A DNA stretch of 64,000 bases from Octopus sinensis (lineage: Eukaryota), in NCBI RefSeq assembly GCF_006345805.1, contig NC_042997.1, positions 50,840,001 to 50,904,000 on the forward strand, given 5' to 3'. The translations under genes and the position numbers were made by a program. The notes below the pieces were generated by a model. It did not search any database and was not told where the DNA came from. It worked only from the letters and a program-made list of their open reading frames with translations. Shown one piece after another: positions 368 to 60,971 of this stretch. How positions within the stretch are numbered: position 1 is the first letter of the stretch; every line of letters starts with the position of its first letter.

Positions 368-2680
368 TTAATTGTTTGTCGTAGACCCGTTAAGAAGTGG
401 CTTGTATTTTGTAATAAAGAGATTTTCTTTACTTATTCGTTGTCTCGAGGTTGTATCGTCCCTAAATTGGTAGAGGGGGAAAATCCTGAAGTTTGGTGTT
501 TTTTTGTTGGCGCAAGTATCTATGTGTTGGCTAAAAGCTATTTTTCTGTTTTGGGGAATTTTTATCTGGGATCTGTGCAGGGCCATTCGTTTACGCAAAC
601 CATTTTTTGTTTGGCCTATGTACTGCTCTTGACACCCGGAGCAGGTTAGTGAGTATATTAGGTTCTCCGAAGCACATGTGAAGTTGCTTTTCACTGTAAA
701 CCGTTGTCCCTGTTTGAAGGAGAACTCTGATCCCTCAATTAGATAGTCGCATATCCCGCAATTGGGTCTTCCACATTTTTTTACTGTCGGCTTCTGTGTT
801 GAAGAGTGAATTCGGGCTTGTGTTAGGAGACTTTTCATGGATCTAGGCTGTCTTTTGCTTTTTATGATCGTGTGTGTTTGGAGGATTGTGTTCATTCTGT
901 GGTCTTTTTTTAGGAGGGGTATGTTGTGAGGATGGTGTCGAAGGCTTCGTTATTGAGAGGGTTGTGTGTGGAGATGTATGGTAAGGCTTTTGGTTGTAAG
1001 TTTTTCTTTGATTTGGGATGTCTCAGTTCCTTGATGTTAAGTTGAAGGGCACGTTGAATGCACTTGTCAATAAGTGAAGGTGGATAGTTCCTGGTGATAA
1101 GGGTATCTTTTAGTTCTTGTAGTCGTGTGTCTCTGGTGTTTGCGTTAGAGACTATAGTGCATATCCTTTTTGCTAGATTGAAGGGGATATTCATCCTGGT
1201 GTGTCTGGGGTGGCATGAATTGAATGGAAGATATTGCTTAGAGTCTGTAGGCTTATAGTATATGTCTGTTTCTATTATATTATTAGCTTTCTTAATGAGG
1301 ATATCGAGGAAGGGGAGTTGTTGCTGGCTATATTCCATCGTGAATTGGATGTTTACGTCCAGTCCGTTTAAAATTTCCTGGAATTCTATGAGTTTTTCTA
1401 TATTTTTATGCCAAAGGATGAAACAGTCATCTAGATATCTCTTCCAGTTGTTTTCTATGTAGATGGAGAAAGGGCTGCCATATCTTTCTAGAACCTTACG
1501 ATACAGACTGATCTCTAGGTATCCTATGACTAGGTTGGCAAAGGAGGGGGCCATTCGTGTACCCATCGCAGTCCCCGATTTTTGTCGGTAGAAGTTGTCA
1601 TTGAAGGCGAAGAAGTTATTTTCCAGGATGAATTTAACCCCTTCTATCACAAATTCTTTTTTGATGCGGTGTGGTAGTTCGTTGGCGTGATTCTCTAGCC
1701 AGAATTGGATTGCCTCTAGTCCTAGGTTGTGGGGGATATTGGAGTAGAGGTTGACTACATCGAAGGATACCAGTATGGTGTTTTTGTTTATAGTATTCGG
1801 TAGGTGATTGAGCATATCTAAGTCGTCCCTTATATAGCTTTTGACATGTTTGAGGAGTGGTTTTAACAGGGTGTCTAAAAAGTTACTGAGGCGGTGGGTT
1901 TCGCATGCGGGACCTGCTATTATGGGTCTCAATTTGAGGTCATTAGGATTAGGGACTTTAATTATTTGTCTGTAGCTATCTTGCATGCGTTGCTTATTTT
2001 TTCACTTTTGTGGATCTTAGGTATACCGTAGAATTGGCTAGTTTTACTTGTGAAATTGGTCATATAATCATATTCTTTGTCGGTGAGCCCTGCTTTGTAT
2101 GGATTTAATATGGATTTTAGTTCCCTCATTATTTTTTGTTGACTGTAGTTTTGTGCCTTTTCATAGTATGTTGTGTCTTCCAGCATAGAAAGTACCAAAG
2201 TTATGTAAAATGTCGTATCCATTAAGACAACAGCACTCCCTTTATCGGCCTCTTTGATTGTTATTGTTTTATCTTTTTTAATTTGTTCAACTCAGCCCAT
2301 TCTTTTTTGCTGAAGTTTGGTTTGTGTTTTTGTTTGTGCATATGTTGATATGGGTAATTAGATATGTGGTCACAGAAATCATCAAGTGTTTTGTTCTTAC
2401 CTTTCGAGGGGGTGTAGTTACTCCTATTTCTGGCTAACGATTCGTCCTCGTTGTATTTATCGTATAGCTCCTCAGTAAGTCTTAATTTTCTGCAGAATTC
2501 TGCGATGTCTTCTTTCATTTCGTTGTAGTTGGGGTGTTGTGGGGTGGGTGTAAACTTGAGTCCTTTGGAAAGTATGTTTATTTGGTTTGCTGTTAGTTCC
2601 TTGTGAGTTAGATTGATAATTTTTATTACTTTTGGTTCCTCCTGCTTGTTTGGTGCTATCTTGTATCTCTGTGTTTGCAT
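368..2680 (-). pseudogene. Penelope-like RT-GIY-YIG polyprotein, split by three single-base frameshifts
   Basis: Motifs LSKGLKF, IKEADKGSAVV (DKG), LRPII, SFDVVNLYSNIP, GTAMGTRMAPSFANL, RYLDDCF, LPFLD, CGRPNCGIC linker, NLIYSLTC..C..YIGQT, KENLFI. No in-frame stops seen once the frames are joined. Confidence 0.92.
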
Positions 2681-3942
2681 ATTGGGTCTAAAAAATGAAT
2701 GCGGTGGTTGGGACGGTAGCTATTATATAGTTGTTCTTTGTTGATGTGGGGTCTCCTGTTGTGATTTATGGTGTGTGTTCTTGGAGCAGTATTGAGGAGA
2801 GCATCCCGATATCCCATATTCGGGTGTGGTGTTCTAGGGGGCCTTCGTTGGTAGTCATTGTAAGTGGAGTGGGTTTGTTGTGCATGGTTGTTTAACCGGT
2901 TTATGGGGCGGAGATTTCGTTGGTAACTCTTTTGGGTGGGGATAAGGTTGCAGTGTCTATGCTGTGGGTGTTGATTTATCCTTTCTCTGCTTGAAGTGGG
3001 GGTATTCCTGATATTGTAACGCTGGCTGCTTAAAGAGTTAGGGTTAGGCCCTGTATTCTTTTTTTGAAAGTAGTGAAGGTTCCGATTTTTAGACAGGTGT
3101 GTATCGGTGTTTGGGTGTTGTTTTGGTTTTCTTATTTTCTGGAAAGGGTTGTTGGAGGCGTGCTCTGTTTGAAAGACCGCTTCATAGTCTGAGAACCAAA
3201 TGGCGTTTTTCTCCCAGCGTTGGAGAGATTTTAGTTCTTCTTTTTCACAGTCCTCTTTCCATAGTTTGGAGAACTTCTCTTGATCTGGGCCTTGGGTCAT
3301 TTTGCGAATTTCTTCCTTGATATCTTCATCGGTGGATTTTATTTTATCCTCATTCGTTTGGGCCCTCAATTTCAGAAGTTCTATTTCCATTTTCATTTTT
3401 TCCAGTGCCATTCTCTCCCTGAGGTGTCTTTGTGTTTCAGGTTCCTCTGTAATAGCTTTGAACTGGAATTTACGTGGGAGGATTAACGGAGTCCGGTTGA
3501 GCCATTTTTCGTATATATCCGCTTTGTTGTTGTTTTGGATCATCTTCCAAAAGGCGAACTTTCTATCTCTGAGTGATTTGTTCCATTGTGGTATTATGTG
3601 TTGTTTCATTTGGTATGTTGTTAGAGTATTGATCCCATATATTGACGCGTTTGGAGGTCCTTGGTTAGCGTTGTTAGAGAAAAATGTTCTAATTGTTTCG
3701 CATAAGTTTCCAAGGTTTTCGACAATTTCGGAGGTTGTATTTTTCGTATCTGTTTCCTCATTGTTCTCTCGATTGGGTTGATGTGTCGAGTCGAATTTGT
3801 TCAAAAATGTTGACAAATTTGTGTTGATTTTCTTGAGTTCTTTCAGTATTTCTTCATTTATGGAGGCGATTGTGTCTGTTTTTGTCGGCATTTTCTGTAT
3901 CTCGTGTGGGTTAATGATATGTATAAGGGTGGAAAGGAACAC
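2656..3942 (-). CDS. Penelope-like element N-terminal ORF1-like region (coiled-coil-like, basic)
   Basis: 428-aa open frame directly upstream of the RT frame, with a helical heptad-like stretch (ERMALEKMKMEIELLKLRAQTNEDKIK). First ATG gives MPTKTD. Confidence 0.7.
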   Translation of the reverse strand: MFLSTLIHIINPHEIQKMPTKTDTIASINEEILKELKKINTNLSTFLNKFDSTHQPNRENNEETDTKNTTSEIVENLGNLCETIRTFFSNNANQGPPNASIYGINTLTTYQMKQHIIPQWNKSLRDRKFAFWKMIQNNNKADIYEKWLNRTPLILPRKFQFKAITEEPETQRHLRERMALEKMKMEIELLKLRAQTNEDKIKSTDEDIKEEIRKMTQGPDQEKFSKLWKEDCEKEELKSLQRWEKNAIWFSDYEAVFQTEHASNNPFQKIRKPKQHPNTDTHLSKNRNLHYFQKKNTGPNPNSLSSQRYNIRNTPTSSRERINQHPQHRHCNLIPTQKSYQRNLRPINRLNNHAQQTHSTYNDYQRRPPRTPHPNMGYRDALLNTAPRTHTINHNRRPHINKEQLYNSYRPNHRIHFLDPICKHRDTR

Positions 3943-4011
3943 ACGAGTTGATATATATGAAAAAACAAGTCAAAAATAGAAAATGGTAAGATAATTTTAT
4001 AGTGAATTTTT

Positions 4012-4049
4012 CAGTACCGGTTTCGGTCATTTTGAGACCTTTTCAACTG
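4012..4049 (-). ncRNA. Minimal type I hammerhead ribozyme, U3-A8 variant (5' pLTR copy)
   Basis: Minus strand reads CAG UUGAAAA GGUC ucaaaau GACC GAA ACCGGU A CUG: stem I, core, stem II, palindromic stem III, UA cleavage site. Confidence 0.72.
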
Positions 4050-5191
4050 TAACGATTAAATAATTAAATTTAGAAAAATTAGAAGAAAAGTTTTTTTAAA
4101 AGAATATTTCTGTAGTAGTGTTCAGATATAAGTAGCATTCTGCCTTTCTCTGACTCCCTTGTTTGCACTTGTGTGTTCGAGGTCGTTTTGAGTTCTTGGT
4201 AGGATAGGTGAAGAATAAGGAGGCTGATGTGGAGAGGGGGTGGGGAAATCTGGGAATGCCTTAATGGTCGTATTTTGAATGGTCAGTGGCTGACAGTAGT
4301 CGCAGCTCAATTCAGGAATTGTTTCCGTAAACGAATGGCCCTGCACAGATCCCAGATAAAAATTCCCCAAAACAGAAAAATAGCTTTTAGCCAACACATA
4401 GTTACTTGCGCCAACAAAAAAACACCAAACTTCAGGATTTTCCCCCTCTACCAATTTAGGGACGATACAACCTCGAGACAACGAATAAGTAAAGAAAATC
4501 TCTTTATTACAAAATACAAGCCACTTCTTAACGGGTCTACGACAAACAATTAATATACCTCAACTTTAGAATAAAAGAAATATATACACACACAAATATT
4601 ACACTCCATAGAATCCATTACTAATCAGCCCCATCACAGCTATACTTTCACCCATTCATATTCTCCCTTCTCTGTTTTTTTCTTCTTCTTCTCCCTCTTC
4701 TTCTTCATCATCATCATTATCATCATCATCGTCGTCATCATCATCATCACCACCATCATCACCACCATCTTCTCCTTCTCCTTCTCCTTCTTCTTCTTCT
4801 TCTTCTTCTTCATCATCATCATCAACATCGTCATCTTCTTCTTCTTCTACTTCTCCACCTTCCACCCCTTAACCTTGTCACTAATGTCTTTCAGTATAAC
4901 GCCTACGCAAATTCCATAAACAATTCCTGAATTGAACTGCGACTACTGTCAGCCACTGACCATTCAAAATACGACCATTAAGGCATTCCCAGATTTCCCC
5001 ACCCCCTCTCCACATCAGCTCCTTATTCTTCACCTATCCTACCAAGAACTCAAAACGACCTCGAACACGCAAGTGCAAACAAGGGAGTCAGAGAAAGGCA
5101 GAATGCTACTTATATCTGAACACTACTACAGAAATATTCTTTTAAAAAAACTTTTCTTCTAATTTTTCTAAATTTAATTATTTAATCGTTA

Positions 5192-5229
5192 CAGTTGAAA
5201 AGGTCTCAAAATGACCGAAACCGGTACTG
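5192..5229 (+). ncRNA. Minimal type I hammerhead ribozyme, U3-A8 variant (inverted copy)
   Basis: CAG TTGAAAA GGTC TCAAAAT GACC GAA ACCGGT A CTG. A third copy lacking the 5' half of the core begins at 5531. Confidence 0.72.
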
Positions 5230-5336
5230 AAAGATTCACTATAAAATTATCTTAGCATTTTCTATTTTTGACTTGTTTTTTCATATATATCAACTCGTGT
5301 GTTCCTTTCCACCCTTATACATATATATATATATGT

Positions 5337-5382
<46 letters not shown>

Positions 5383-5610
5383 GTGAGCGTGTGTTTCTGT
5401 GTGCCTGTCTGTCTCTGTGTTTATGTTTATATAATTTTAAAACCAGTGTTGTTATCTCTGTCTCATAGCTTAATAGTTCGACAAATTCCGGGTAATGAAT
5501 TTATTACTGAGGCCGATATTATAAATTCACGTCTCAAAATGACCGAAACCGGTACTGAAAGATTCACTATAAAATTATCTTAGCATTTTCTATTTTTGAC
5601 TTGTTTTTTC

Positions 5611-5946
5611 ATATATATATATATATATATACATATATACATATATACATACATATGATATATATACATACATATAATACATATACATACATACGTGTAT
5701 AAGTATATATACATATATACATTCATGTATGTATGTATGTATGTATGTATGTATGTATGTATGTATGCATGCATGTATGTATGTATGTATGTATGTATGT
5801 ATGTATGTATGTATGTATGTATGTATGCATGCATGCATGCATGTATGTATGCATGTATGTATGTATGTATGTATGTATGTATGTATGTATGTATGTATGT
5901 ATGTATGTATGTATGTATGTATGTATGTATGTATGCATGCATGTAT
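5611..5946. repeat. (TA)n/(TATG)n microsatellite block
   Basis: Directly visible simple repeats. Confidence 0.95.
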
Positions 5947-6199
5947 GGGAGACACTTGCTGCCGACCGCTCATCCTGGCGCAGCGCAATCACCACAGGAG
6001 CAGGGACAGCCGAGGAGGGACGGATTCGGTCAGCGGAGCAGAAACGCCAGATGCGGAAAGTAGCACGGCCCTACCCACTTCTGCCCCACCTGTGGGAGGG
6101 GCTTCTTTGCCCGGATTGGCCTCACCAGCCACCTCCGGTCTCATAGCGGCAGTTCCACCAGATGATGTCAGTGGTCACCTTCGAACCCGAAGGACGAAC
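5945..6199 (+). mobile_element. RTE/BovB-like LINE 3' fragment
   Basis: WETLAADRSSWRSAI...KRQMRK followed in another frame by CPTCGRGFFARIGLTSHLRSH (C2H2 finger typical of RTE C-termini), flanked by microsatellites. Confidence 0.8.
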
Positions 6200-6213
6200 A
6201 TATATATATATGC

Positions 6214-6244
<31 letters not shown>

Positions 6245-8268
6245 TGTATGTATACTTCACTTTTTAAATTTAGAGTAAATTTTGACCGGCCACCTACTTG
6301 GTAATAATGTTGTGAAGGAAAGTATCTTGTTTTAATCATCATCCTTTAAATCTTAAGAAGGTCTTGCAGATTTTTATAGTCCCAGATGTCATGATCATTT
6401 GTAACATATGATTTAAGGGTTTGCATTCAAGGATATTCAGCTGCTATGTCTGACAAGTTGGACAAACACGTAATATCGTGGCCGCTCACTCGACCTATTT
6501 GAAAGAGTCGGAAAATATCCCTCAAGTAATACCCTGTCATCTTAAAAAGAGCACATTACACAATACAGTCTGAGACACAGTATCCGTGAAAATAAGAAAG
6601 TAAAGAATTGAAAGACTTAGGATTTGCTTAACCAGAACTTGACTGATGGGCTACACAATAGCAAAACAGAAACAAAGTAAACGAAAGTATAATACAACTC
6701 AATAGGACTAATAATTCTTTCTAATTCTTAGAACTAGGCCAGTAATTTTAAAGGGAGGTAAGATGGCTATACCAACTCTTGTATTAAATTGGTTCTTACT
6801 TGATCCACCCCGAAAGGATAAAAGACGAACTCAATCTCAGCTGTATTTAAACTCAGAATGTAAAGTGCCGGAAGAAATGTTATGAAGAATTTGGAAGGAG
6901 TGATAATGATTCTGCCAGTTCACTTCATTTAACGGCTTCAAATTCTGGAACAGGGCCAGTAGCTTTGAGGAAAAGAAGTCGATTATATCGAACCCCAGTA
7001 CTTCACTGGTACTTATTTTATCAACCCCGAAAGGATGAAAGGCAAAGTCAAGCACAGTGGAATTAAACCTCAGAACGTAAAGATGGACGAAATACCGCTA
7101 TGCATTTTGTCCGCCAGCTGATTCTACCAGCTCACCTCGTTTAGAATAAAACAAATAAGAAATTCTATAAAATGAAAGCAGAGTCAAAAGGTTCTTTAAT
7201 GTTATTGTGCCAATCGTAGCATTCTAAACGAGAAAGAAAAGACGTATTCCATCTGTGATAGGAAACAAGGGCAATCGGAGAAGCTTCTTGAACACTCATC
7301 ACAGACATAAATGTGGAGCATCCATATATTGTTAAAAACAATTTCTTCCCAGTGCTAAAACTCTAACACTACTTTTGTGATGTGATGTTGGAAATGTAAT
7401 AAGGCTCGAGGTATAGGTTATAAACAAAAAGATAGACTTAAGTAAACATGGTGAACCCCTGAACTTTGAAAGTTGAAGTGAGAGTAAATATATATGTATG
7501 TTGAAAAGTGTAGAAGTAATGTCTGAAATAGCAGTAAGTTTTTGGCAGCAGTGATCGCAGTGAAATGAAAGGAAAACCGATTACTCCCCCTTCCTTCTTC
7601 CTCTCTGTCATAAGCAATCATTCATAAATTCCTGCAATGTGGAGGAATTTATTATTGAGATAATAAAAATGTCTAGAAGGTAAATAGAGTGTATGAATCT
7701 TTCCCTAACAGAAAACAGAAAGATATGAGAGAAATTACGAACCTTTCCTAAATGAAAACAGAAAAAACAATAATTTTTTCTGCATCTGGAATGGTTTAAG
7801 GTGAGAAAAACTAAAGTTCATCTTAATTAGTAACAAAAAAGAAAACCAAAGAGGGAGCTTCTACATAGTAACTAGTGACTAGATTTGCTAGAAATAGCAG
7901 CTTAAGTACCCTCAAATCATTACAGATCGTCTTAAATAAGGAACGGACAGCATGAATAATATACTCACTTCTACACATAAGTCTAAAAAAACGAGATAGT
8001 CACGACTAGAATGTCTTTTGGATTGTAAATGCGCTCGATCAGGGTTTGAGGTAGCGCTAAATAATAGGTTCTGACTTAGTCACAGGGCCAACAGTTTTGA
8101 GGGACAGGGGTTAGTAACATCGACTCTAGTACTAGACTTGTATTTTATTTTATCGACCTCGAAAGGATGAAAGGAAAAGTTGACCTCGGCCGGAATGGAA
8201 CTCAGAGCATAAAAAGCCGAACGCTTTAAAGATTCTGCTGAGTAACAGTTTATACATATGTTATTAAG

Positions 8269-8305
<37 letters not shown>

Positions 8306-9041
8306 TATGATAAAAGAAGGGATTATTTCACATGTGTTTTGAGCGTGATGGGAAAGGTTATATAACGTAAAGGTGATGCACAGAAATGAAAAATAATCTC
8401 AGAACAATACAAAAAGGAACCTTATTATTTTGAGGAATGTGGAAACACCTCCTAACCACTATTCTTTCCAAATCTACTCTGACCTGGAGTAGTAGCACCT
8501 GCTAGAGTCTCACCTATGGTTTAATTAGGATATGAGCGCAGGGACGTTGAAATATTTGGGTTGGTGTCCGAGAGTGCAATATGCCTACTGTGAGTGAGGG
8601 AGCCGGGTCTGTTAAATCATCCCTCTAGGAGAAAGATAACTGTATAAAAAATCCGATGCTCTAGTGAGACGGATACAGTGTATTTTGCTTCTGTCTAGGT
8701 TCCTTACTATTGCTACTAATTGCCGTTGTCGCTTTGTGCAAGCCGCACCAGACTTAGAACCCATGCATGGGCATTGCTGACGTTACCTGTCAGCGATGGT
8801 CGTGCTCGTCTAACGAGTAGACAGCCTATATATATATATATATATATATATAATAATAATAAATATTAGGGAATAAATCCAAATTTACAGGGAAAAATCA
8901 GATTTAGGATTGAATCCAATTTTATAGTAAAATATAATATAATATTAATTAGAGACAAAACCACTATTATGCAAATCAAACAAAGAAAGACTTAATCCAA
9001 TACATAAAAAATTTTATATAAATTAAATATAATTAAGATAT

Positions 9042-9087
9042 CCACTACGATCGTTTCTTGTCACTTCTATGGACATTCATCAGGTGG
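9042..9087 (-). ncRNA. Type I hammerhead ribozyme, canonical core
   Basis: Minus strand reads CCAC CUGAUGA AUGUC cauagaagu GACAA GAA ACGAUCGU A GUGG, with one mismatch at the base of stem II. Confidence 0.78.
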
Positions 9088-10680
9088 TTTCAAGACCTAA
9101 AATATAATCAATATTTTTAAGATATAAATTTGAAATGACTAATATATATAAAATATAAAATTATCAATGAAAATATATATAATCAAGAACTAAAATAACC
9201 TCTATAAACAATTGTATATAATGAAACCTAGTATTTAAATTCTCATATTTAAAGATGAAATAGCTAATTTCAAAAAACAAAAAACAAAAAATAAAAAATA
9301 TATATACACACATGATCATGCACATATATCCATGTATGTATATAAACATATCTAAATACTTACACAAACTCACACACACATATATATATCTATACATACA
9401 CATAAACATATAGACAAAGATAAATTTATAATGTAGCTGTATACTTCTACACATTGCTTATTCATACTCCCACACACACACATACAATCACTCATTCATA
9501 AACATATTCTCTCAACATGATACTAACACAGAGGAAATATAACATCCAGTAGCCGCAGATACTCAACCACAAACTTATATAAATATTTCATTCTTAGTAA
9601 AATATTATTAAATACTATATACTATATATATGTAATAAACATATATAAATACGTAAACAAACACACACACATATATATATTCTATATACTATATGCATGT
9701 AATAAACATATATAAATACGTAAACAAACACACACACACACGTAAATATTTATACATACACAAATACATAAAGACAATATTTCTACACATTAATAATGCA
9801 TACTCACACACACACACATACAATCATTCATACATAACCGTATTCACACTGCAATACTCTAACACAGAGGGGAAACAAATCCAGTAGACACAGATACTCA
9901 GCTACATACTTATAGGAATAATCCTTACTTAGTAATATATTATTAAAAAATACTATCATTACTATAAACAAATTTATGAATGGGAATATTATCGTATATA
10001 AAATTATTCTATTATTAAACATAGCCTAAACCATTTTAAATCGAAACCTATCTATTTATCAAAGTTTGTCTAAATTATTTAATAACTAATAACAAAGAAA
10101 ATTACGATAAATAGATCACTACATAAACAGCAAGATTAACATAAGGAGAATATTATTATTCAAAGGCTTACACATATTAAAAATTACAATTTGGAGATCT
10201 TAAAAAAAAGTACGTACCTTCTATGCAATTTTGAACTATGAAGTGAATTTGAATGACAAACGTCTTACAGCGTTTAAGAAATTACGTTATCAACAGAAAT
10301 AGAATAAATTTTTAATAAATTCTTTGCGCGTGATGAACCAACTTTATTTTAAAGATTATGAATGGAATAATATGTTTATCATCGTAAATAGAATGAATTT
10401 ACTAAAATATTCTTTAATAAAACAAACATGATAAACAAACCCAAACAAAACAAATATAATGATCAAAACCACCCATTACCAGATACACAAGAGCAAACCT
10501 ATATAGCAATCCCCCCATCTATACATTCACACATATATACACACACATATTTACACACACCCACACGCATATACATATACACACTCTCACATACATATAC
10601 ATACGTACAATACTCGATATATACACCAATATATTCACACCCACACTCATACAAATAAATAAATACATATACATCCATAA

Positions 10681-10711
<31 letters not shown>

Positions 10712-11812
10712 TCAAATACTCATATATATAAAAACACACACATTCACAAAAAAATAAGTATGAGTGTGTACACGCATACGGGTGCAAACGCGCGCACATG
10801 CAAGCATGCATGTATACATGTGCATGCACAAGCACACGCATGTACATGTGCACGCATGTACATGTGCACGCATGCACACCCGCATCTACACATACACTAG
10901 TACACGCGCACACGTGCACACACGCACATGCTCATGCATATTCACGGACACCCCCCCATACATCTATATATACGTATGTATGGCTACATCACAATCTCAC
11001 CCAGCATAAATAAATCTGCCATGATCACCATTCCCAATCTATAATACAAGGGGATTGGAAACATTCACAATATGTAGGGGACAACCATCCAAATGCACCC
11101 CTATGCATTCAACAACATGTGGCTCCCATTCATCCAATTCAACCCGTATCAGGTTATACCCATATCAGCCATAAATTAATATTATAGTATAATATATGAA
11201 TGTAAATAAACTTATCTAAATACGTACACATCCACATACATATATATATATATCTATGCATACACATATACAAGACACAGATATAATATTCATTAAAAAT
11301 ATAGACACAGATATAATATTCATTAAAAATAACCATGATAATGAAACCCACATAAAAAATTAAATGACTAAAACCAACAATTATTAAATACACAATACAA
11401 ATCTATATAGCAATACCCCCACACTATAAACTATTTCCCACACCCCCACATCCCAACCTAAGACTAATATTCATAACAAACCCATATACTACACAAAACA
11501 TTTATAGTACAACCACACACACGCATACACAATATAATAAAATACCAAACTCACACATGCACATATACATATATACATATATACACATACACATGCACAA
11601 ATACGTATATACACACACACACATCTACATACATATACATATACATACACATATACACATATATACTCACATACTTTCATATACATATATACACACACAT
11701 GTACACACACCTACACCACACACATATACATACTCATACATACTTATACATACATACAATACTCGATATATACAGCAATATATATACACGCCCACACCAT
11801 CCAAATAAATAA

Positions 11813-11854
<42 letters not shown>

Positions 11855-12269
11855 CAACAAATACTCATATATACAAACACACACATTCACATAAATTATA
11901 AATAAATATATATAAATGTCTATATACTACAATACATAATAGAGGTAAATAATAAAATAAAATAAATAAAATAAATAAAATAAATCTAAAATAAATCTAA
12001 AATAAATAAAATTGTAACTTACCAGACTCAATATTCAATAAACAGTTATATTTAATATACATTAATAAGAAATTAATTAATACAATGAAAAACCATCTAT
12101 AATCTAACTATAATTAAAACCTAAACTACATAACTAAAATAAATTATTATAAAAATAAAAAGTACTCTAAACATTTAAAATTTATAATACTAGAACAAAA
12201 CCTATAATAGGGAGCTATTTAATATTAATAAATAATTATTATTTATCATGAAACTTATTATATAAGTAA

Positions 12270-12700
12270 AGTAACCTGTGTCTGCATTTTATTTTGCGCT
12301 CTTCACCTGTATTCAGTAAATTATAATACCTATAAATAAAATTTCCTTAAACTCATTAGCGCACAAATAACAAAAATTCACTCCTATAGTATATGATTTA
12401 GTTTTACAAATTATTTCCCAAGATAAGTTATAATTAATATTTTGTGATTTAAGTCTCCAAATGTACTTGCTAAGTCCAGTGGAGTTGATTAAGTTTTTAT
12501 TTTTAAAAGAATTCAGATGTTGTGCGATTCTTAATTTTATTTTAGAGGAAGTAGACCCTATATAAATCGCTTTTGGGTAATTATTATTCTTAAAATTATT
12601 ATCATGTAATGTAACTATACATTTATACACTACATCATTAATATCGCATTTATTATTTAATTTACATTTAGATTTATCTCTACAAGTACAGTTAATATAT
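12270..12700 (-). pseudogene. GIY-YIG endonuclease of a Penelope-like element (possibly Hydra-type clade)
   Basis: CTCRDKSKCKLNNKC..DVVYKC...IYIGST..KLRIAQH..STGLSKYIW..CYLCANE, with KCRH further on in another frame. Clade assignment is tentative. Confidence 0.8.
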
Positions 12701-13038
12701 GTCTTATCTTTATTATTAGTATTATTAAATAATTTATTTTTGTAAAAATTATTCAGTTTAAATTTGTTAAATGAAGAAATAATGTTACCTACATTATTAG
12801 TGGAATAACCTACTCCAAAATTATTACTAGAAAATAAGGTAAATAAGAATAAAATTTGGTTAATAGTTCCTTACGGTGATCAAGTTAAAACCAACATTAT
12901 TAAAGAGATTTTAGATATTATCGAACTTTTTATTCGAGATAATCGTAAATATAAAAACATTTTCTCTAGTAATAATTTTGGAGTAGGTTATTCCACCACT
13001 AATAATGTAGGTAACATTATTTCTTCATTTAACAAATT

Positions 13039-13492
13039 CTTTTCAATGAAGAATGTTTCCTTGTTTAGTCTAATTAGACTAAACAAGGAAACATTCTTCA
13101 TTGAAAAGTACAAGCCCAGACTTAACCATTCCAACATACTTATACAGAGAAATTCACTCCAAAGAAAAGACAAAAAATTTTAAGCGATTATCTCCCTTAC
13201 ACCGGAAGAAATCACTTATTACCTCCCCTTATTTGGAACTCTTCTCAACATAAACATAACGATAACTCTTCTCAACATAAACATAACGATGTAAGAAATT
13301 TGAAAAGCTGAACGCGAAACCGGTCATTTCTTCTAAACTATGTCATTGTAAGAAGAAAATTGATAACATTCTTCAGACATATTGACTCAAATATATATTT
13401 TTTAACCTTTTAAAACAAGCCTTCTGTAGTTTTTTCACTTTTTACTATTTTCTATATAGTCAACCACGTGCTTTCACAAACCAACTTTCTCA

Positions 13493-13495
<3 letters not shown>
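13039..13495 (+). mobile_element. Third Penelope-like 3' tail with fold-back 5' end
   Basis: Encodes RLNKETFFIEKYKPRLN (cf. RISKENLFITKYKPLLN of element 1), followed by a hammerhead, ending at (TA)n. Confidence 0.75.
13293..13332 (+). ncRNA. Minimal type I hammerhead ribozyme, U3-A8 variant
   Basis: AAGAAAT TTGAAAA GC TGAAC GC GAA ACCGGT C ATTTCTT: 7-bp stem I, 2-bp stem II, palindromic stem III, GUC site. Confidence 0.75.
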
Positions 13496-13524
<29 letters not shown>

Positions 13525-13528
<4 letters not shown>

Positions 13529-14366
13529 TTTAACAATTAAGGATAATCTCTTAATAAGGGATCTTAACAAGAAATTATCGGGTAGCTAGCGTGAAAATCT
13601 CATAAAAGAAAAGAATTCGAAAATAATTTTTTTCTTTTGAACAAATTAATTATATCTATATTGTATAGAGGGCATTATTACACATAAATGCCTCACACTA
13701 AGAGGGACAAAGTCATTACTACCAAAATTATACTAATCATACCCAAATGCAGTTTTTCAAAGCAAGACATTTAAAAAATGAATTTAGTTCTGTATCACCG
13801 TGATTTCACATTCAACTTACGTCTAATGATCGTCAGCAGAACTGATTCTGAACACATCATAAATAAACTACCAACCTCTATACAATATAGATATAATTAA
13901 TTTGTTCAAAAGAAAAAAATTATTTTCGAATTCTTTTCTTTTATGAGGTTTTCACGCTAGCTACCCGATAATTTCTTAAGATCCCTTATTAAGAGATTAT
14001 CCTTAATTGTTAAACTTATTCCGAAATACTTTTCATTACCCGACATGCAGTTCGTAAAAAGCCCGCCATTTACCGGATATATGATTTATAAACATTCCAT
14101 GTGCTTGGCCGGAGTGAGCAGTTGTCTGTTCGTCTTCGCTACGTAAGGTTGGTAGTTTATTTATGATGTGTTCAGAATCAGTTCTGCTGACGATCATTAG
14201 ACGTAAGTTGAATGTGAAATCACGGTGATACAGAACTAAATTCATTTTTTAAATGTCTTGCTTTGAAGAACTGCATTTGGGTATGATTAGTATAATTTTG
14301 GTAGTAATGACTTTGTCCCTCTTAGTGTGAGGCATTTATGTGTAATAATGCCCTCTATACAATATA
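13525..14366. mobile_element. Non-coding hammerhead-containing element (retrozyme-like or non-autonomous PLE): 477-nt unit plus inverted partial copy
   Basis: 13525-13877 is the reverse complement of 14146-14366 plus 13875-14019. Direct repeat CCTCTATACAATATA at 13875 and 14352. Flanked by (TA)n. Confidence 0.75.
14180..14237 (+). ncRNA. Type I hammerhead ribozyme, canonical core (mirror copy on - strand at 13786-13843)
   Basis: AGTTCTG CTGACGA TCATT agacgtaagttg AATGT GAA ATCA cgg TGAT A CAGAACT, with a U-U mismatch at the base of stem II. Confidence 0.8.
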
Positions 14367-14384
14367 TATATATATATATATATT

Positions 14385-15402
14385 ATGCCACCGCATAACT
14401 TGACACTAAAACTGGATGCTTCCATTATGTTGCTTAGGAATCTTGACCCATCTCAACTCTGTAATGGAACTCGCTTAATTGTTACTTCCATGAAGCTCCA
14501 TGTCCTGCAGGTAACAATCATAACAGGTAGTCACAAAGAAATGTCTTTATTCCCAAAATTCCTCTCATACCTACAGATGTTCCATTTGAATAGAAGATGC
14601 TTCGGTTTCCAGTCAAACTAAGTTTTCTTATTTCAATTAACAAATCTCAAAGTCAATCCCTCAATGTAGTTGCACTTGATCTCTCTGCCACAGGCTTCTC
14701 CCACAGCCAACTCTATGTTGTTTCCTCGCGGACTGGTAGCAGCAACAATTTATTCATTTCGAAACCAACTAAAAATTACACAATTAATATTGTTTACCCT
14801 GAGGTGCTTCAACATTGACAGATTTTCAGTTCGAAATTCTATAATCATTACGATTTAGATTTTTTTTTTTTAATAAAACATAGATATTCTGAAATAATTA
14901 TGAGAATATATCTTTATATTTATTGTTTAAGATAAAAACAGTAGTAACAGTAGTAGGCGCAGGAGTGGCTGTGTGGTAAGTAGCTTGCTAACCAACCACA
15001 TGGTTCCGGGTTCAGTCCCACTGCGTGGCACCTTGGGCAAGTGTCTTCTGCTATAGCCCCGGGCCGACCAATGCCTTGTGAGTGGATTTGGTAGACGGAA
15101 ACTGAAAGAAGCCTGTCGTATATATGTATATATATATATATGTGTGTGTGTTTGTGTGTCTGTGTTTGTCCCCCTAGCATTGTTTGACAACTGATGCTGG
15201 TGTGTTTATGTCCCCGTCACTTAGCGGTTCGGCAAAAAGAGGCCGATAGAATAAGTACTGGGCTTACAAAGAATAAGTCCCGGGGTCGAGTTGCTCGACT
15301 AAAGGCGGTGCTCCAGCATGGCCGCAGTCAAATGACTGAAACAAGTAAAAGAGTAAAAGAGTAAAAGAGTAAAACCCGTGCAACACCGGGTCATTCACCT
15401 AG
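14385..15402 (+). mobile_element. Helitron 3' fragment (PIF1-like helicase C-terminus, hairpin and CTAG end), interrupted by a SINE
   Basis: PPHNLTLK..IMLLRNLDP..LCNGTRL, then FPVKLSF..SINKSQSQSL..FSHSQLYV..NIVYPEVL. Terminal ACCCGTGCAACACCGGGT...CTAG|T at 15374-15402. Confidence 0.88.
14956..15372 (+). mobile_element. tRNA-derived SINE family A with (GTAAAAGA)n tail
   Basis: A-box/B-box-like head (TGGCTGTGTGG...GGTTCAGTCCC), GGCACCTTGGGCAAGTG body, tandem tail. Other copies at about 17226-17595(-), 43130-43385(-), 48585-48900(-), 59953-60366(-), 61355-61560(-), 62120-62275(-). Confidence 0.85.
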
Positions 15403-16148
15403 TCTCTGTGTGTGTGTATACAGAGAGAGAGAGAGAAGGAGAAAATACTTATATTCTTATACCTTTACATATATACATGTATTTCAATGAGTTAATTACC
15501 AGCTTTTCAGCACATCTGCCTAAAGTAGTATTTTTTGCTGATGCACTGAAGAGGTAAGAGATACTCAGAGATACTCACTGAAATATTATATATATATATA
15601 TAAAGATATAGAAAATGAGTTCTTCAACTTTAACCTTGAAGAGATTCTTCTCCTTTAATAGTGAATCACCACTAGAGGCAAACCACATGATCGAATATCA
15701 GAAATGTTTTCTGCTTTTCCTCTATTTTAAAGTTATATGGCTCGGACTGCATCTTAGCCTATCCTTCGATGTGGTGATTAGATTTATATCGTATAGGGAA
15801 ATAGGAATTTAATGCAGAACTGACTCATGAACTCCAAACCTATAGGTAGCGTGTTGTGCACAATAGAACATTATTGATTTATAACAACATAGATACATAC
15901 ACGTATGCTCACGCACGTGTATATATATATGTGTATATATATATAAAGAGAGAGAGGGGGTGTATTAAACGGAACAGGAAGAGACATGTGGAATGGGGCG
16001 TCGTTGAAGGGATCACGGGATGTGTGACGAAAGATTTCAGACAAAGGATACAAAACTAAGAACAATAATAAAGCTAAAGTGAAGAACGAGTGTTTATTTG
16101 GAGAAAAAAAAAGGAAATGACCATCTTGAAATATAACTATATATATAT

Positions 16149-16787
16149 TTGAATAATCATGACGCACACTCTTACTCTTTACTTGACTTTTCCTCCCTGC
16201 CTGTCTGTCTTCCTCTCTACTTGTCTCTCTCTTTCTTATTTTTCACCCTTTCTGGTTTCTTTTCCCCTCTCTCTCTCTCCTCCTCCTCCTCCTCTCTCTG
16301 GCCGTTGACCAGAGGGCTACTAAAACTTTCTTTCAGCTTCGTGCTTCAACAAGCATACATCGACTTCCCTGTCTTTCGCAAGCCGATTTTTCTCATGCGT
16401 TCTAACTAATTTTTCCACCGTCTAGGCCTAAAAAAAGCCCTTATTGTTGGTTCCTTGTCCTGTTATTCCTTATTTGTACTGTTTTTTCTACTGTTTTTTC
16501 TTCATTTGTATTGCTTTTGCGTCCTGTTCTTATCACTTGTTTTACCCCTCTGCAAAAGAATTTTACTTAATTCCTTTTGCAGGAAGGACTGCTTCGGCCT
16601 GGCCGTGTTCTGCCCTTACCTTCGAAACACGCATTGAGCCGAACCAGGGGCAGCCGATGAAGGGGAATTTTCCTTGTATTGTTTATCTTGTACTCTGTTT
16701 TTTCGTTGTTAAAAAAAGTCCGTTTCCTTGTTTGATTTCATGTTTTCGTTTCTCGTTATGTTCTACGTTTATTTGTGGTGTCCTGTA

Positions 16788-16790
<3 letters not shown>
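16149..16790 (+). repeat. Unclassified pyrimidine-rich interspersed element inserted in (TA)n (PLE-tail-like)
   Basis: Bounded by TA microsatellites. Architecture similar to 21060-21800 on the opposite strand. Confidence 0.4.
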
Positions 16791-16839
<49 letters not shown>

Positions 16840-16934
16840 TGTATATATATATATGCATGTATATATATGTAGATGTAGATGTACATATATGTATGTATGT
16901 ATGCATATATTTTATTTATTTATTATTGTTATTG

Positions 16935-16967
<33 letters not shown>

Positions 16968-17047
16968 GCATGTATATATACATGTATATGTAAGTATGTA
17001 CATATACACACACATATATATATATACATATACGTGTATATATATAA

Positions 17048-17106
<59 letters not shown>

Positions 17107-17995
17107 AGCTGAAATTTACAGAAAAACAAAAGACGAAGACAGGTGTATAAACAACAAGCAGGTGTATTAGTTTGACGCTCGTGAAGGTGAGAAAGTCCTT
17201 TACATTTGGAGCCTACGCTCTTCAACAGTCATTTGACTGCAACCATGCTGGAGCACCGCCTTTAGTCGAACAAATCGATCCCAGGACTTATTCTTTGTAA
17301 GCCTAGTACTTATTCTATCGGTCTTTTTCCGAACCTCTAAGTTACGGGGACATAAACACACCAATATCGGATGTCAAGCAATAGTGGATGCGTACAAACA
17401 CAGACACACAATTACATACAGATATATCTATGACGGGCTTCTTTCAGTTTCCATCTACCAATATCCACTCACAAGGATTTGATCGGCCCGAGGCTACAGC
17501 AGAAGACACTTGTCCAAGGTACCACACCGTGCGACTGAACCTGGAACCATGTGGTTAGAAAGAAAGCTTCTTACCACACAGCCACTCCGGTGCCTATACA
17601 TATACAGTATATGTGTGTGTGTGTGGAAGCACAATGGCCCAGTGGTTAGGGTAGCGTGGTCGTAGGATCGCTGTTTTGATTCCCAGACCGGGCGTTGTGA
17701 GTGTTTATTGAGCGAAAACACCTAAAGCTCCACGAGGCTCCGGCAGCGGGTGGTGGCGAACTCTGCTGTACTCTTTCATCAAAACTTTCTCTCATTTTTT
17801 CTTCCGGTTTCTCTTGTACCTGTATTTCAAAGGGCCAGCCTTGTCATACTCTGTGTCACGCTGACTCATCCCGAGAACTACGTTAGGGGTACACGTGCCT
17901 GCGGAGTACTCAGCCACTTGCACGTTAATTTCACGAGCAAGCTGTTCCGTTGATCGGATCAACTGGAACCCCCGTCGTCGCAACTGACGGAGCGT

Positions 17996-18029
<34 letters not shown>

Positions 18030-18033
<4 letters not shown>

Positions 18034-18357
18034 TCAGTGGTTAGAGCGTCGAGCTTACGATCGTGAGGTTGTGAGCTCGAATCCCGGACCGGGCTGCGTG
18101 TTGTGTTCTTGAGCAAGACACTTTATTTCACGTTGCTCCAGTTCACTCAGCTGTAGAAATGAGTTGCGACGTCACAGGTGCCAAGCTGTATCGGCCTTTG
18201 CCTTTCCCTTGGACAACATCGGTGGCGTGGAGAGGGGAGGCCGGTATGCATGGGCGACTGCTGGTCTTCCATGAAACAACCTTGCCCAGACTTGTGCCTC
18301 AGAGAGTAACTCTCTAGGTGCAAACCCATGGTCAGTGTCTGACCGAAGGGGGTCACC
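18030..18357 (+). mobile_element. tRNA-derived SINE family B
   Basis: TGGCTCAGTGGTTAGAGC...TCGAATCCC head and TGTGTTCTTGAGCAAGACACTTTA body. Copies or relatives at about 17625-17996, 25420-25705, 32045-32380, 32808-33115, 45667-45965. Confidence 0.85.
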
Positions 18358-18408
18358 TATATATATATATATATATACACATACATACATACATACATAT
18401 TATATGTA

Positions 18409-18457
<49 letters not shown>

Positions 18458-18463
18458 GACTAC

Positions 18464-18506
18464 GCTGCATTGATAAAGGGCAACTACCCTGAAACGCGTC
18501 TGCAGC
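18464..18506 (+). ncRNA. Minimal type I hammerhead ribozyme, U3-A8 variant
   Basis: GCTGCA TTGATAA AGGG caacta CCCT GAA ACGCGT C TGCAGC: perfect stems I and II, palindromic stem III, GUC site. Lies in a roughly 270-bp insert within (TA)n. Confidence 0.82.
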
Positions 18507-18744
18507 TGTCTGACTAGCAGGATGAAGCGGCTGACCTCCCCTGTTCGAAAGTCTATAATGGACGCAGATTGTGTGTCAAATAGCTTGCTTGAGGCGGTGG
18601 CCTCTTGGAGCTAATCATCGACAGCTCTAGTCTTATATTTATAAGATTGCCATATTAGTATGGCGATAACTATTAATTTCCAGTAACGCTGCCGTAATCT
18701 CCTTTAGAGAGACTTAGTAATTTTTATATTTATATATATATATA

Positions 18745-19325
18745 TGTAGTGACCCTATAGCGGTGCGCGCTCGCGCACCGTCCATTTGTATTTCGCGCGT
18801 GTCGGTGCCTTTACCAAGGCACAGAAAGGAAGGGCCCTCTCGCGCATGCGCGAAGCACCGGAAGCACGACCCTGGCCAAGGCAGGGGGATCGTAGAACGT
18901 TTGACCACTAGCAGCAGCAAGCGGCGACTTGGGACCCAGCGATTGAAGGCGGCGGTCACGATATTTTTCTCTCCGGTTGATAGCAGCAGTCGGCCGAATG
19001 CCTTTAACCAAATTGTTGCCGACCACATTCAACTTCCCTGTTCGACGCCATCTTGACCCCTTTCTGGTTTAGCGGCTGGACATTGTAAATATTACACCAG
19101 ATTAACTTTCAGCCTTGCGCGCCCCGAACCAAGGACATCAGATAACACACTTATTGTTATTGTTACCAAGAAAGAGAATAAAGTAGTATATATATATTTT
19201 ACGTCTGCGTCTTGTTGTTTCTGACTGGTAGAATTCTGGATTATTAAAGCAACGGCTAGTGAGTGATTGTTTTCTTGTACCCCGAAAGTACAAGATCAGA
19301 TATTCACACACTCACACTAAGTTCG

Positions 19326-20342: not shown

Positions 20343-20929
20343 TCAACTCTAAACGCTTTGCAACGTTTGTTTTTGAAGGTAGTGGTTTTCTGATTGCAAC
20401 CCTCCATGAAATCCGGCTTTGTGCAACTCCGGGCGAACAGTTTTTGCGGAAACTGGGTTCCCGAGGTGGTCATTAAGCTCTGCAGTAATTTTGGGAGCTC
20501 TACTTTTATGATCCTTTCTAACAATTCCCGTAAGAGTCCGATGGTCCCTATCTGAAAGTTTTGGTTTTCTCTCGGAGTTTTGTTTCGACGAGGAGGTTTT
20601 CCCTCTTTCTCAAAGGCTGTCATAACATTCGAGACAGTATTTCTTGATACACCAAACATTTCGGCTGTTTTCGTTACGCTAGAGCCTGCCATACGAGCTC
20701 CAACAATTGGACCTCTTTGAAAATGCGATACATCTGTCATTTTAATGAATTTTAATTATCTTTTTCTGATGATATCTGAAAAGAAACAGCAATTTCAGCA
20801 AAAAGTATTAAGCAACATTAATAATAAATCAAAAAGTATAAAAATAAACAAGCTTTTGATGGTTTTATAGATATTTCAAAATTGCGATGCTATTACGCGA
20901 GGTGTTTCCATTATTTTCTCCAACACTTG
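20343..20929 (-). mobile_element. Tc1-like transposon, 5' fragment
   Basis: TA-CAAGTGTTGGAGAAAATAATGGAAACACC terminus and paired-like HTH MTDVSHFQRGPIVGARMAGSSVTKTAEMFGVSRNTVS. Frameshifted and truncated. Confidence 0.82.
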
Positions 20930-43112: not shown

Positions 43113-44464
43113 GAATGAATTGACCCCAATACTTATTTTTTTAAAACCTAGTACTGATTCTATTGATCTATTTTACCAAACCACTAGGTTATGGGGAACA
43201 TAAACACACCAAAAGCTGTTGGAAAGCGGTGGTGGGGGACGAACATACACACACACACATGATGGGCTTCTTCCAGTTTCAGTCTACCAAATCCACTCAC
43301 GAAGCTTGCCCAAGGTGCCACACAGTGGGACTGAACCCAGAACCATGTGGTTGGGAAGCAACTTCTTACCACAAAGCCATGCCTTTGTCTATGCAGAAGA
43401 TTCCTCATTGGCATGTTTTCTTTTTGCATTTTTCAAAGATCAAGCACTTTAAACAAATAATATTCCAGTCTTGACTAGGCAATCCTTTTAAGGGTATCAA
43501 GCACTACACTATTCTAATGTGTTCTTCTCTTCTTTTAAGATAGCAAGGAATTGTACGTTGAGGGAATTTAGTTGCTATTCACAACAGGACAAGCAACCAT
43601 GTAGAGGCACTGTATGTGCTATGCTCCCTTTTGTTTAAGTCTTCTATTTTACTTCTATTTCCAAAAGAAACTATGTCACTTACAAAGCTAATATTCTTTG
43701 GAAAGATCTGTCCCCCATCATACCCACAGATGAATAGGCTTAATATTAATTTCAGTGTGTAATTATTTAACCAAGTATCCAGTATATATTGTTGCTGTTT
43801 TAGCCCCAGGTGAGTTGTGTGAGAGCAAACCTATGATCAAAGATTTTACAGCTTTGATTAGCCTGTATTCTTGTGCGTCTGAGGGAGAATTAACTATCTT
43901 TTGAAGGCGGTCAAACACCATGTTCGGGATTTCCCACAGCTTGATATCCAGTATATATTGTTGTTTAATGCCAGGTCATCGCTAATTGAACACACTTATG
44001 ATCAAAGACAGACCACCCTTAACTAACAGCATACCTTGGACTATATTATACAATATGACTTATTTTCTTTCTAAGATGGTAAGGTGCGATCTGAAAGAGA
44101 CCGGGTAGAGGTAGAGAGAAAGAGAAAGGTTTAGCTGGCCTACCATATAAAGTCTTCTTTCCATGTTTCAATATCTGGAAAGAATCTGAAGGTACACCTA
44201 AGAACTCTCACAGAAATTCTAGTCCCAATCTTTGACAGCCATGTATTTCTGCAGTTTGTCTGGACTCAATAACTGTATGCATGCAATCTGATACTATATT
44301 TTCTCAGCTATTCTATTTCTATTTTATATAACATCATGTGTGATACATACGATATAGTACAATGATATGCATCACACACATGATACATATGTCCTTTGAT
44401 CTGATAACTAGAAAAATATAGGTTACAATAATTTACAGGCATTACTAGAAACTACAATTAGACT

Positions 44465-44806
44465 TACGGAGATGTACTTGCATAGCAAGTGACCTGATCT
44501 GAGATCGTGTGCTGAAACAAAAACAATTGCAGTGTGGAGGGTGTTTATAAGCCATTTAAAAACACACAAAACCGTTAGATTCACTTCAACGTTTAAATTT
44601 AATTTGTCAAACTATTTTCGTCGCTCTGAAACTATGACCTGTTCACTGACAAATTCCGTGATGCAGCACAGAATTTTGTCAGTGAACAGGTCATAGTTTC
44701 AGAGCGACGAAAATAGTTTGACAAATTAAATATAAATGTTGAAGTGAACCTAACGGTTTTGTGTGTTTTTAAATGGCTTATAAACACCTTCCATGCAGCA
44801 GTTGTT
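44465..44806. mobile_element. Fold-back insertion with a hammerhead-like motif on each arm and a 12-bp TSD
   Basis: 44521-44655 is inverted against about 44672-44807. TACAATTAGACT at 44453-44464 and 44807-44818. Confidence 0.8.
44675..44725 (+). ncRNA. Hammerhead-like motif with G3-C8 core (mirror copy on - strand at 44603-44653)
   Basis: TTTGTCA GTGAACA G GTC atagtttcagagc GAC GAA AATAGT T TGACAAA. Confidence 0.5.
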
Positions 44807-45279
44807 TACAATTAGACTGTGATCTCTAAACAATCTCCAATAATCCTTTAACTCTTAGACTAATCATCAGCTCAAAGACCTTAATTGTTATTACCCACCC
44901 TAGACCAAACTTCACCCAATTCTTTCTCCTCATTGGAATTCTCTCCCTTGTTCATGCTTTTCTTGAAGACATCATCTTACAGATACTGAAACTGAACATC
45001 AACTATCAACCCCAGACATCTTCAAGGCCTTCTCAGGTCCTTCAAGACTAACCCCCTTTAAGACTAAATTATTATTAAAAAGTAAAATTTTTTTTTTTTG
45101 TAAATGCCATAAAATTTTTCATTAGTTAAAAATTCTTGCAGCATGTCAGTATATTGTTAAAAATTACTGAAATGAATTTCTAAACAAAGTCACACAACAG
45201 CAATACTTAAGGACAGAACCTTTCTTTCCATTCTAGAACCTAATAAATTATCTCATAAAATACTTTACACCCCTTTTAA

Positions 45280-60925: not shown

Positions 60926-60971
60926 TGCAAAACTCACGACACTAGCTCAGAAAGAAAGGTGTTTTACTTGC

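What the first reader, a model, noticed from the sequence alone, without database searches (positions are those of the whole stretch)
4012..18506. Three retroelement families carry hammerheads with a non-canonical U3-A8 catalytic core
Seen: motifs at 4012-4049(-)/5192-5229(+), 13293-13332 and 18464-18506 have correct type I hammerhead geometry (stem I, 7-nt core, stem II, GAA, palindromic stem III, UH). Their cores read UUGAAAA, UUGAAAA and UUGAUAA rather than CUGANGA, and their stems I and II differ from each other. Established: C3 and G8 form a tertiary Watson-Crick pair, and U3-A8 is a known but uncommon natural compensated variant. Inference: the double change in three families points to selection for cleavage, and CUGANGA-based searches would miss this class in cephalopod Penelope-like elements.
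Basis: partly seen in the sequence, partly recalled or inferred. Interest (0 to 1): 0.8.

Follow-up and report, generated by a model that had tools for sequence, protein, structure and literature searches.

The report
Jumping-gene ribozymes with swapped core pairs
Mobile elements in this animal genome carry many thousands of copies of a small RNA fold that likely cuts itself, and different families use all four possible versions of one key base pair in its active site; the version flagged here is already published, but two others were not found in the papers that could be searched.

Summary
The four motifs are minimal type I hammerheads with a U3-A8 core and a palindromic helix III. Two families lie in Penelope pseudo-LTRs. 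The third is a non-coding ~360-bp tandem unit, retrozyme-like. U3-A8 in Penelope elements is published, with the same core strings (PMC4209133), so the flagged point is not new.

The genome-wide picture is more unusual. Pattern counts: U3-A8 12,509; A3-U8 1,647, in several Penelope families; canonical C3-G8 about 4,300 with other helix III forms. C-G and U-A interchange within single lineages. That supports selection on the pair.

Against: a recent Penelope subfamily carries a U3·G8 wobble, some repeats have lost the fold, and cleavage is untested. Natural A3-U8 or G3-C8 families were not found in the papers searched, but a key catalogue (Lünse 2017) was unreadable. An unchecked scan note mentions G3-C8 in a phage.

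The parts
368..3969 (-). Penelope-like element, family A: one reading frame broken by frameshifts into pieces (2656-3969, 2261-2719, 1962-2291, 910-2001 RT, 368-949 GIY-YIG endonuclease)
   Evidence: ORFs; Pfam RVT_1 E=6e-9 and GIY-YIG E=6e-5; a 748-aa open stretch in another copy (L062)
3917..4324 (-). Upstream pseudo-LTR part of family A; a third copy of the same hammerhead lies on the same strand about 280 bases before the window start, 4.3 kb downstream of this one
   Evidence: neighbour stretch L143
4012..4049 (-). Hammerhead A, U3-A8, helix III A-CCGG-U, A17; predicted cut between 4015 and 4014, about 125 nt before the first AUG of the long frame
4317..5324 (+). Inverted, 5'-truncated copy of family A (end of the endonuclease frame, 3' UTR, hammerhead)
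   Evidence: inverted repeats I1 and I2 at 99%; tblastn and blastn
5192..5229 (+). Hammerhead A, U3-A8; predicted cut after 5226
5531..5618 (+). Partial duplicate of the family A end, lacking the 5' core
13072..13526 (+). 5'-truncated pseudo-LTR of Penelope family B; homologues lie about 170 nt downstream of an endonuclease frame in L003, L041, L042, L066
13293..13332 (+). Hammerhead B, U3-A8, 7-bp stem I, 2-bp stem II, C17; predicted cut after 13325
18457..18748 (+). Solo, diverged copy (82-86% to relatives) of family C, a non-coding unit that is tandem at about 360 bp elsewhere (retrozyme-like)
18464..18506 (+). Hammerhead C, U3-A8, helix III A-CGCG-U, C17; predicted cut after 18500
44459..44674 (-).
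44666..44810 (+). Family K, short inverted copy, with a G3-C8 hammerhead at 44675-44725 (7-bp stem I, GUGAACA, U17; palindrome mutated to AUAG in this copy)

Best explanation
These are minimal type I hammerhead motifs carried by Penelope-like retrotransposons and short non-coding elements, and they likely cut their own RNA as dimers, with selection likely keeping a base pair, of any Watson-Crick type, between core positions 3 and 8. Shown: the fold geometry, the element context, the copy numbers, and families with C-G, U-A, A-U and G-C at 3-8. From established hammerhead chemistry: the 3-8 pair places the 2'-OH of nucleotide 8 as general acid and G12 acts as general base, so the base at 8 can change if 3 changes with it. 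Inferred: helix III is too short in one copy, so two copies pair through the palindrome (A-CCGG-U, A-CGCG-U, A-CUAG-U, A-CUGCAG-U, A-AUAU-U), probably helped by the element's protein. Cutting 3' of position 17 would release a unit-length RNA (4.3 kb for family A, about 360 nt for family C, which may circularise). Inferred: C-G and U-A interchange through a U·G wobble that is tolerated.
For: Geometry beyond chance (family K 0 of 20,000 shuffles). In 22 hand-picked representatives the invariant columns are exactly U4 G5 A6 A9 G12 A13 A14 A15.1 U16.1, while stem I changes freely but stays paired (92% of cells paired; 3-8 UA 11, CG 5, AU 4, GC 2; rows were chosen by core type, so this is illustration and not a test). 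Unbiased sample with any 3/8 and a CSSG helix III: the repeated families with intact stems are U-A or A-U. Counts with that descriptor: U-A 12,509, A-U 1,647, C-G 244, S3-W8 1,585, W3-S8 965. In one search, 57 of 100 listed unpaired hits are one repeat that has no stem I in that register. Both positions change together inside lineages: L028 and L029 against L026, and at least 2 changes forced by well-supported branches among 37 retrozyme-like copies. In family K, 94 of 100 listed copies are G3-C8, and subfamily-level variants fall in 6 of 9 loop-2 columns but 0 of 27 core, stem II and helix III columns (34 loci). A C3G/G8C double mutant partly rescues a Penelope hammerhead (PMC11167929).
Against: No cleavage data. 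A recently active B subfamily has U3·G8 (14 of 100 listed; L041 and L042 on very short branches), and one inverted insertion has C3·A8 in both copies (L043), so a Watson-Crick pair is not needed for every round of copying. High-copy repeats with a broken fold exist (family E, L090/L091, L039/L079). Ribozyme-dead Penelope RNA still inserts in vitro, and no RNA ends were seen at the cut site in that system. Published activity of such minimal motifs is low even as dimers. Family A has U3 with A17, and the predicted monomer fold pairs them, which could trap an inactive form; family K likewise pairs G3 with U17 and its dimer helix is weak, -0.2 kcal/mol. Copy counts come from few families and are not independent. 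Part of the invariance in K is due to the patterns that selected the loci.
Confidence: 0.75

Rival explanations
1. The motifs descend from active hammerheads but are now mostly passengers: the fold is kept as a protein-binding or RNA-packaging signal, or by recent copying alone, and cutting does not matter for spread.
For: Ribozyme-dead mutants insert normally in vitro and Naiad-type elements spread with no hammerhead. U·G, C·A and fold-broken families have amplified here. Runs guessed to be RNA show A>G clusters over the family A core.
Against: A tertiary 3-8 pair, which forms in the catalytically active fold, is kept through four states; G-C needs two transversions from C-G. The helix III palindrome changes sequence but stays palindromic across related lineages.
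Confidence: 0.17
2. Mutation bias towards A and T, not selection on the pair, turned C3 and G8 into U and A in AT-rich elements, and the pairing is a by-product.
For: The Penelope families with U-A or A-U are 19-27% GC around the motif; C>U and G>A are the commonest changes.
Against: In the retrozyme-like lineage U-A and C-G sister groups have the same GC content (0.55 and 0.55; 0.43 and 0.44). A-A and U-U families with intact stems were not seen in the listings. G3-C8 cannot come from AT bias.
Confidence: 0.06
3. The G3-C8 family K is not a ribozyme but a chance hairpin around the palindrome AAAAUAUUUU in a short repeat.
For: No protein-coding partner was found in the 34 or so K loci examined; the cut-site triplet is UUU; the dimer helix is weak.
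Against: Full geometry, 0 of 20,000 shuffles; extra nucleotide after A9 and G10.1-C11.1 as in published Penelope motifs; 21 of 21 inverted pairs show one long and one short 3' end, the Penelope tail signature.
Confidence: 0.1

Closest known systems
Minimal hammerheads of metazoan Penelope-like elements (Cervera and De la Peña 2014, PMC4209133; read: parts 1-2 of 4 of the text and parts 1-2 of 3 of the supplement)
   Same: Type I, in pseudo-LTRs, short palindromic helix III, predicted dimers. U3-A8 reported in S. mansoni (about 1,300 hits); the supplement lists cores UUGAUAA and UUGAAAA, identical to those here.
   Different: Of the 56 representatives in their Fig. S3, 53 are C3-G8, 2 U3-A8, 1 U3·G8, none A3-U8 or G3-C8, and no cephalopod is included; their descriptors fixed the core. 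Here swapped pairs outnumber canonical ones in copy counts.
Non-LTR retrozymes of animals (PMC7229834, passages; bioRxiv 10.64898/2026.07.22.740005, part 1 of 5)
   Same: Family C and its relatives are non-coding 348-360-bp tandem units with one type I hammerhead per unit; mussel units are 350-390 bp.
   Different: U3-A8 in three of the sub-lineages here; circular RNA not shown; the window copy is a solo, diverged unit.
PAc Poseidon element hammerhead of Anolis (Frangieh et al. 2024, PMC11167929, passages)
   Same: Penelope hammerhead near the start of the reading frame; two discrete 3' ends (tail); engineered C3G/G8C partly active.
   Different: G3-C8 is engineered there and natural in family K; K has no reading frame.
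Natural core variants (Perreault et al. 2011, PMC3088659, passages)
   Same: U3-A8 covariation reported in several natural hammerheads.
   Different: The passages read name only U3-A8 as natural covariation at 3-8.
Short-stem-III Penelope-associated hammerheads (Lünse, Weinberg, Breaker, RNA Biol 14:1499; not held, seen only as a citation in PMC6765202; content recalled)
   Same: Very large catalogue of dimer-cleaving variants of this architecture.
   Different: Could not check whether it lists A3-U8 or G3-C8 families; this is the main doubt on novelty.

Membership tests
Type I hammerhead ribozyme | Core N3-UGA-N7-N8-A9, GAAA and UH in the right order | tested here: met
Type I hammerhead ribozyme | Watson-Crick pair between 3 and 8 | tested here: met
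   U-A in A, B, C; G-C in K; A-U in D, D2; exception U·G subfamily
Type I hammerhead ribozyme | Helices I and II with covariation | tested here: met
   helix II is only 2 bp in B and D, helix I only 3 contiguous bp in A
Type I hammerhead ribozyme | Self-cleavage 3' of position 17 | not testable with these tools
   only assembled contigs were available
Type I hammerhead ribozyme | Match to an Rfam hammerhead model | tested here: inconclusive
   no hammerhead hit among the 150 of 172 rows shown for the window or for C and K, but the canonical C3-G8 relative L033 is missed too
Type I hammerhead ribozyme | Loop I-loop II tertiary contacts of full-length hammerheads | not tested
   not modelled; minimal Penelope motifs are described as lacking them
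Penelope-like element (endonuclease-positive) | [quoted passage not shown] | tested here: met
   A; B, D, D2, F and the CATG family by tblastn
Penelope-like element (endonuclease-positive) | Pseudo-LTRs and an inverted 5'-truncated copy, hammerhead in the pseudo-LTR | tested here: met
Penelope-like element (endonuclease-positive) | RT or endonuclease in families C and K | tested here: not met
   no Penelope protein hit adjoining C or K motifs; they are non-autonomous at most
Non-LTR retrozyme (family C) | Non-coding 150-450-bp tandem units with one type I hammerhead each | tested here: met
   spacings 348-360 bp
Non-LTR retrozyme (family C) | Accumulates as circular RNA | not testable with these tools
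   no raw RNA reads; no reads were laid on family C
Non-LTR retrozyme (family K) | Head-to-tail tandem arrays | tested here: not met
   2 junction matches genome-wide against 8,049 copies
Non-autonomous Penelope-mobilised element (family K) | Inverted pairs with a tail on one end only | tested here: met
   21 of 21 inverted pairs long plus short; 3' ends cluster near +120 and +180 from the core

The most novel reading that the evidence does not exclude
One animal genome holds thousands of natural, active hammerheads of all four Watson-Crick types at core pair 3-8, including unreported A3-U8 Penelope families and an 8,000-copy G3-C8 short element moved by Penelope machinery; most of its hammerheads are invisible to standard descriptors, and lineages switch pair type through wobble intermediates.
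Probability: 0.45. Interest if true: 0.65.

Novelty: new variant of a known kind. Interest (0 to 1): 0.48.

Why it matters
The 3-8 pair was first shown by structure and engineered swaps. A genome whose mobile elements use all four pairs is a natural version of that experiment and the best sequence argument available that Penelope hammerheads are kept in their catalytic fold, which is an open question because cutting seems dispensable in vitro. It also means that ribozyme surveys that fix C3-G8, or allow only U3-A8, undercount: by these rough descriptors about 22,000 swapped-pair matches stand against about 4,300 canonical ones. The U3-A8 point alone is ordinary.

Tried and rejected
Rfam scans gave no hammerhead hit, even on a canonical relative, so they carry no weight. 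No RNA holder was on record for the family A stretch; all runs were contigs, so ends, strand and level could not be read. The idea that family K is a circular retrozyme opened at a terminal hairpin was rejected: 2 junction matches only. Six loci with spaced K copies held no Penelope frame; no autonomous partner was found. The idea that canonical cores are nearly absent, suggested (244 against 276 control), fell with a wider helix III. Family E (C3·U8), the L039/L079/L080 satellite (A3·G8) and L090/L091 (U3·U8) were examined as counter-examples; none forms stems I and II in that register, so they are counted as degenerate and are reported against the reading. The RT/endonuclease tree (24 of 39 motif-linked rows kept; 15 dropped for under 100 aligned residues or more than 900 nt to the motif; quick method only) is too weak to order events. 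In the retrozyme tree L078, a single C3·A8 copy with a broken stem II, and L069/L070 were left out. A-A, U-U, C-C and G-G classes with a CSSG helix III were not counted directly. Papers not held: Lünse 2017, Przybilski and Hammann 2007, Nelson and Uhlenbeck 2008 and two further ids. Searches that found no report of natural A3-U8 or G3-C8 families or of cephalopod Penelope hammerheads.

Full report
Observation. Forty shuffles of the window gave 3 hits with a palindrome of 4 nt or more, none with a Watson-Crick 3-8 pair. The two A motifs are one element and its inverted copy. A relaxed scan added two copies of a fourth family at 44675-44725(+) and 44603-44653(-) with core GUGAACA, that is G3-C8, and two hits without palindrome or pair that I regard as chance.

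What carries the motifs. Family A is a Penelope-like element on the minus strand at 368-3969, with RT and GIY-YIG domains, an inverted truncated copy at 4317-5324 and the same hammerhead again 4.3 kb downstream, just before the window start. Family B is a truncated pseudo-LTR; its homologues lie about 170 nt behind a Penelope endonuclease frame, and its RT is 56-65% identical to that of A. Family C has no protein; its relatives are tandem units of 348-360 bp, like animal retrozymes (PMC7229834, passages). Family K is a non-coding element of about 215 nt. It is not tandem (2 junction matches), but 21 of 21 inverted pairs have one long and one short 3' end, the tail signature described for Penelope elements. 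No coding partner was found.

Genome-wide counts (G000, 2.72 Gb; pattern matches, not de-duplicated; control is the pattern read backwards). With a CSSG helix III: U-A 12,509 (control 209), A-U 1,647 (413), C-G 244 (276), C/G3 with A/U8 1,585 (524), A/U3 with C/G8 965 (1,067). With other helix III forms, canonical C3-G8 gives 4,268 (629), and further U-A families appear with CTAG, CTGCAG and CATG palindromes. An anchor pattern that leaves 3, 7 and 8 free finds 8,049 K copies (control 7); 94 of the 100 listed are G3-C8 and 6 carry one change. The descriptors differ, so the ratio of about 22,000 swapped to about 4,300 canonical is rough. A3-U8 motifs lie 190-360 nt behind Penelope endonuclease frames in L013, L014, L015, L036, L038 and L071.

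Is the pair under selection? For: both positions change together within lineages. One A-related family has C-G in L028 and L029 and U-A in L026 and in the partner copy of L028. Among 37 retrozyme-like copies, well-supported branches force at least 2 changes between C-G and U-A (loci were picked by core pattern, and L078, L069, L070 were left out). Helix III changes sequence but stays palindromic. In 22 chosen representatives only the catalytic nucleotides are invariant, and stem I stays paired (the aligner set the two K rows one column off in helix III and stem I). In 34 K loci, shared variants sit in 6 of 9 loop-2 columns, 0 of 27 core, stem II and helix III columns, and 2 of 14 stem I columns, one keeping a wobble pair; 0 of 20,000 shuffles give the geometry (part of the invariance follows from the patterns that chose the loci). 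Sister groups with C-G and U-A have equal GC content, which speaks against AT drift alone.

Against: a B subfamily with U3·G8 makes up 14 of 100 listed hits and has near-identical copies with long open stretches (L041, L042). L043 has C3·A8 in both copies of one insertion. One repeat with C3·U8 makes up 57 of 100 listed hits and has no stem I in that register; two other repeats also lost the fold. Predicted monomer folds pair position 3 with 17 in A and K, and the K dimer helix is weak. The protein tree is too weak to say whether A and B gained U3-A8 separately.

Mechanism. By established chemistry the 2'-OH of nucleotide 8 is the general acid and G12 the base (PMC6155905, passages; PMC8495972, passage); the 3-8 pair positions nucleotide 8 (PMC3884650, passages), so its base can vary if position 3 follows. 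That any Watson-Crick pair can support cleavage in some backgrounds is recalled from Przybilski and Hammann 2007, which I could not read; U3-A8 activity in vitro is cited in PMC3088659 and partial rescue by C3G/G8C in a Penelope hammerhead is shown in PMC11167929. I infer dimer cleavage through the palindrome, likely protein-assisted, releasing unit-length RNA. Cleavage itself is not shown here, published rates for such motifs are low, and ribozyme-dead RNA still inserts in vitro.

Known or new. U3-A8 in Penelope elements is published: about 1,300 hits in S. mansoni, with the same two core strings (PMC4209133). Of 56 representatives in that supplement, none is A3-U8 or G3-C8. Nine literature searches showed no report of natural A3-U8 or G3-C8 families or of these motifs in cephalopod Penelope elements; a squid genome paper lists 235 Rfam hammerhead hits without detail (PMC6962438, passages). 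The library lacks most subscription papers, and the largest catalogue of this motif class (Lünse 2017) was not held; bioRxiv supplements were not seen. One unchecked scan note reports U3-A8 and G3-C8 swaps in a phage array, part of which later fell; no note covers this genome or family K.

Reads. Only contigs were available, none on record as RNA. No variant at position 3 or 8 of family A reached 5% in four runs from three organism labels, apart from loose ends in run X2 that read the core As as Gs. K is present in runs of two organism labels.

Verdict. Observation confirmed; interpretation partly supported. The flagged U3-A8 point is known. The wider result, all four Watson-Crick pairs in high-copy natural families of one genome, is a new variant of a known kind with untested activity. 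Interest 0.48.

Noticed in passing
window 5150-5250, run X2: Contigs of a run guessed to be RNA show clustered A>G and T>C changes over the family A pseudo-LTR, including loose ends that read the four core As as Gs; these were near absent from the large run X17. This looks like A-to-I hyper-editing of RNA from inverted copies, which would destroy the ribozyme. No matched DNA, so alleles are not excluded.
   Followed up: partly
L041, L042 (G000:C1:83.02 Mb and 197.68 Mb): Recently copied Penelope subfamily with a U3·G8 wobble core, nested in family B; a possible intermediate or reversion.
   Followed up: partly
L021-L024: Dispersed repeat (family E, several hundred copies) with hammerhead-like core words, C3·U8 and no stem I; origin unexplained.
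   Followed up: partly
L019, L056, L071: Penelope families whose stem II lacks the usual G10.1-C11.1 closing pair (U·U instead), in both U3-A8 and A3-U8 forms.
   Followed up: no
L098 (G000:C1:72.54-72.56 Mb): Tandem array of about 4-kb units, each with a canonical-core motif and family K copies.
   Followed up: no
window 12313-12870(-): Remnant of another GIY-YIG-like frame next to the family B copy, with a perfect 70-bp palindrome at 13039-13108.
   Followed up: no
window 60942-61490(-): Open stretch containing what looks like a DNA ligase I exon (recalled motif; not tested).
   Followed up: no
window 20303-20755(-), 26725-27048(+), 33930-34268(+): Fragments that look like a Tc1/mariner transposase, a LINE RT and an LTR-element RT (recalled likeness; not tested).
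   Followed up: no
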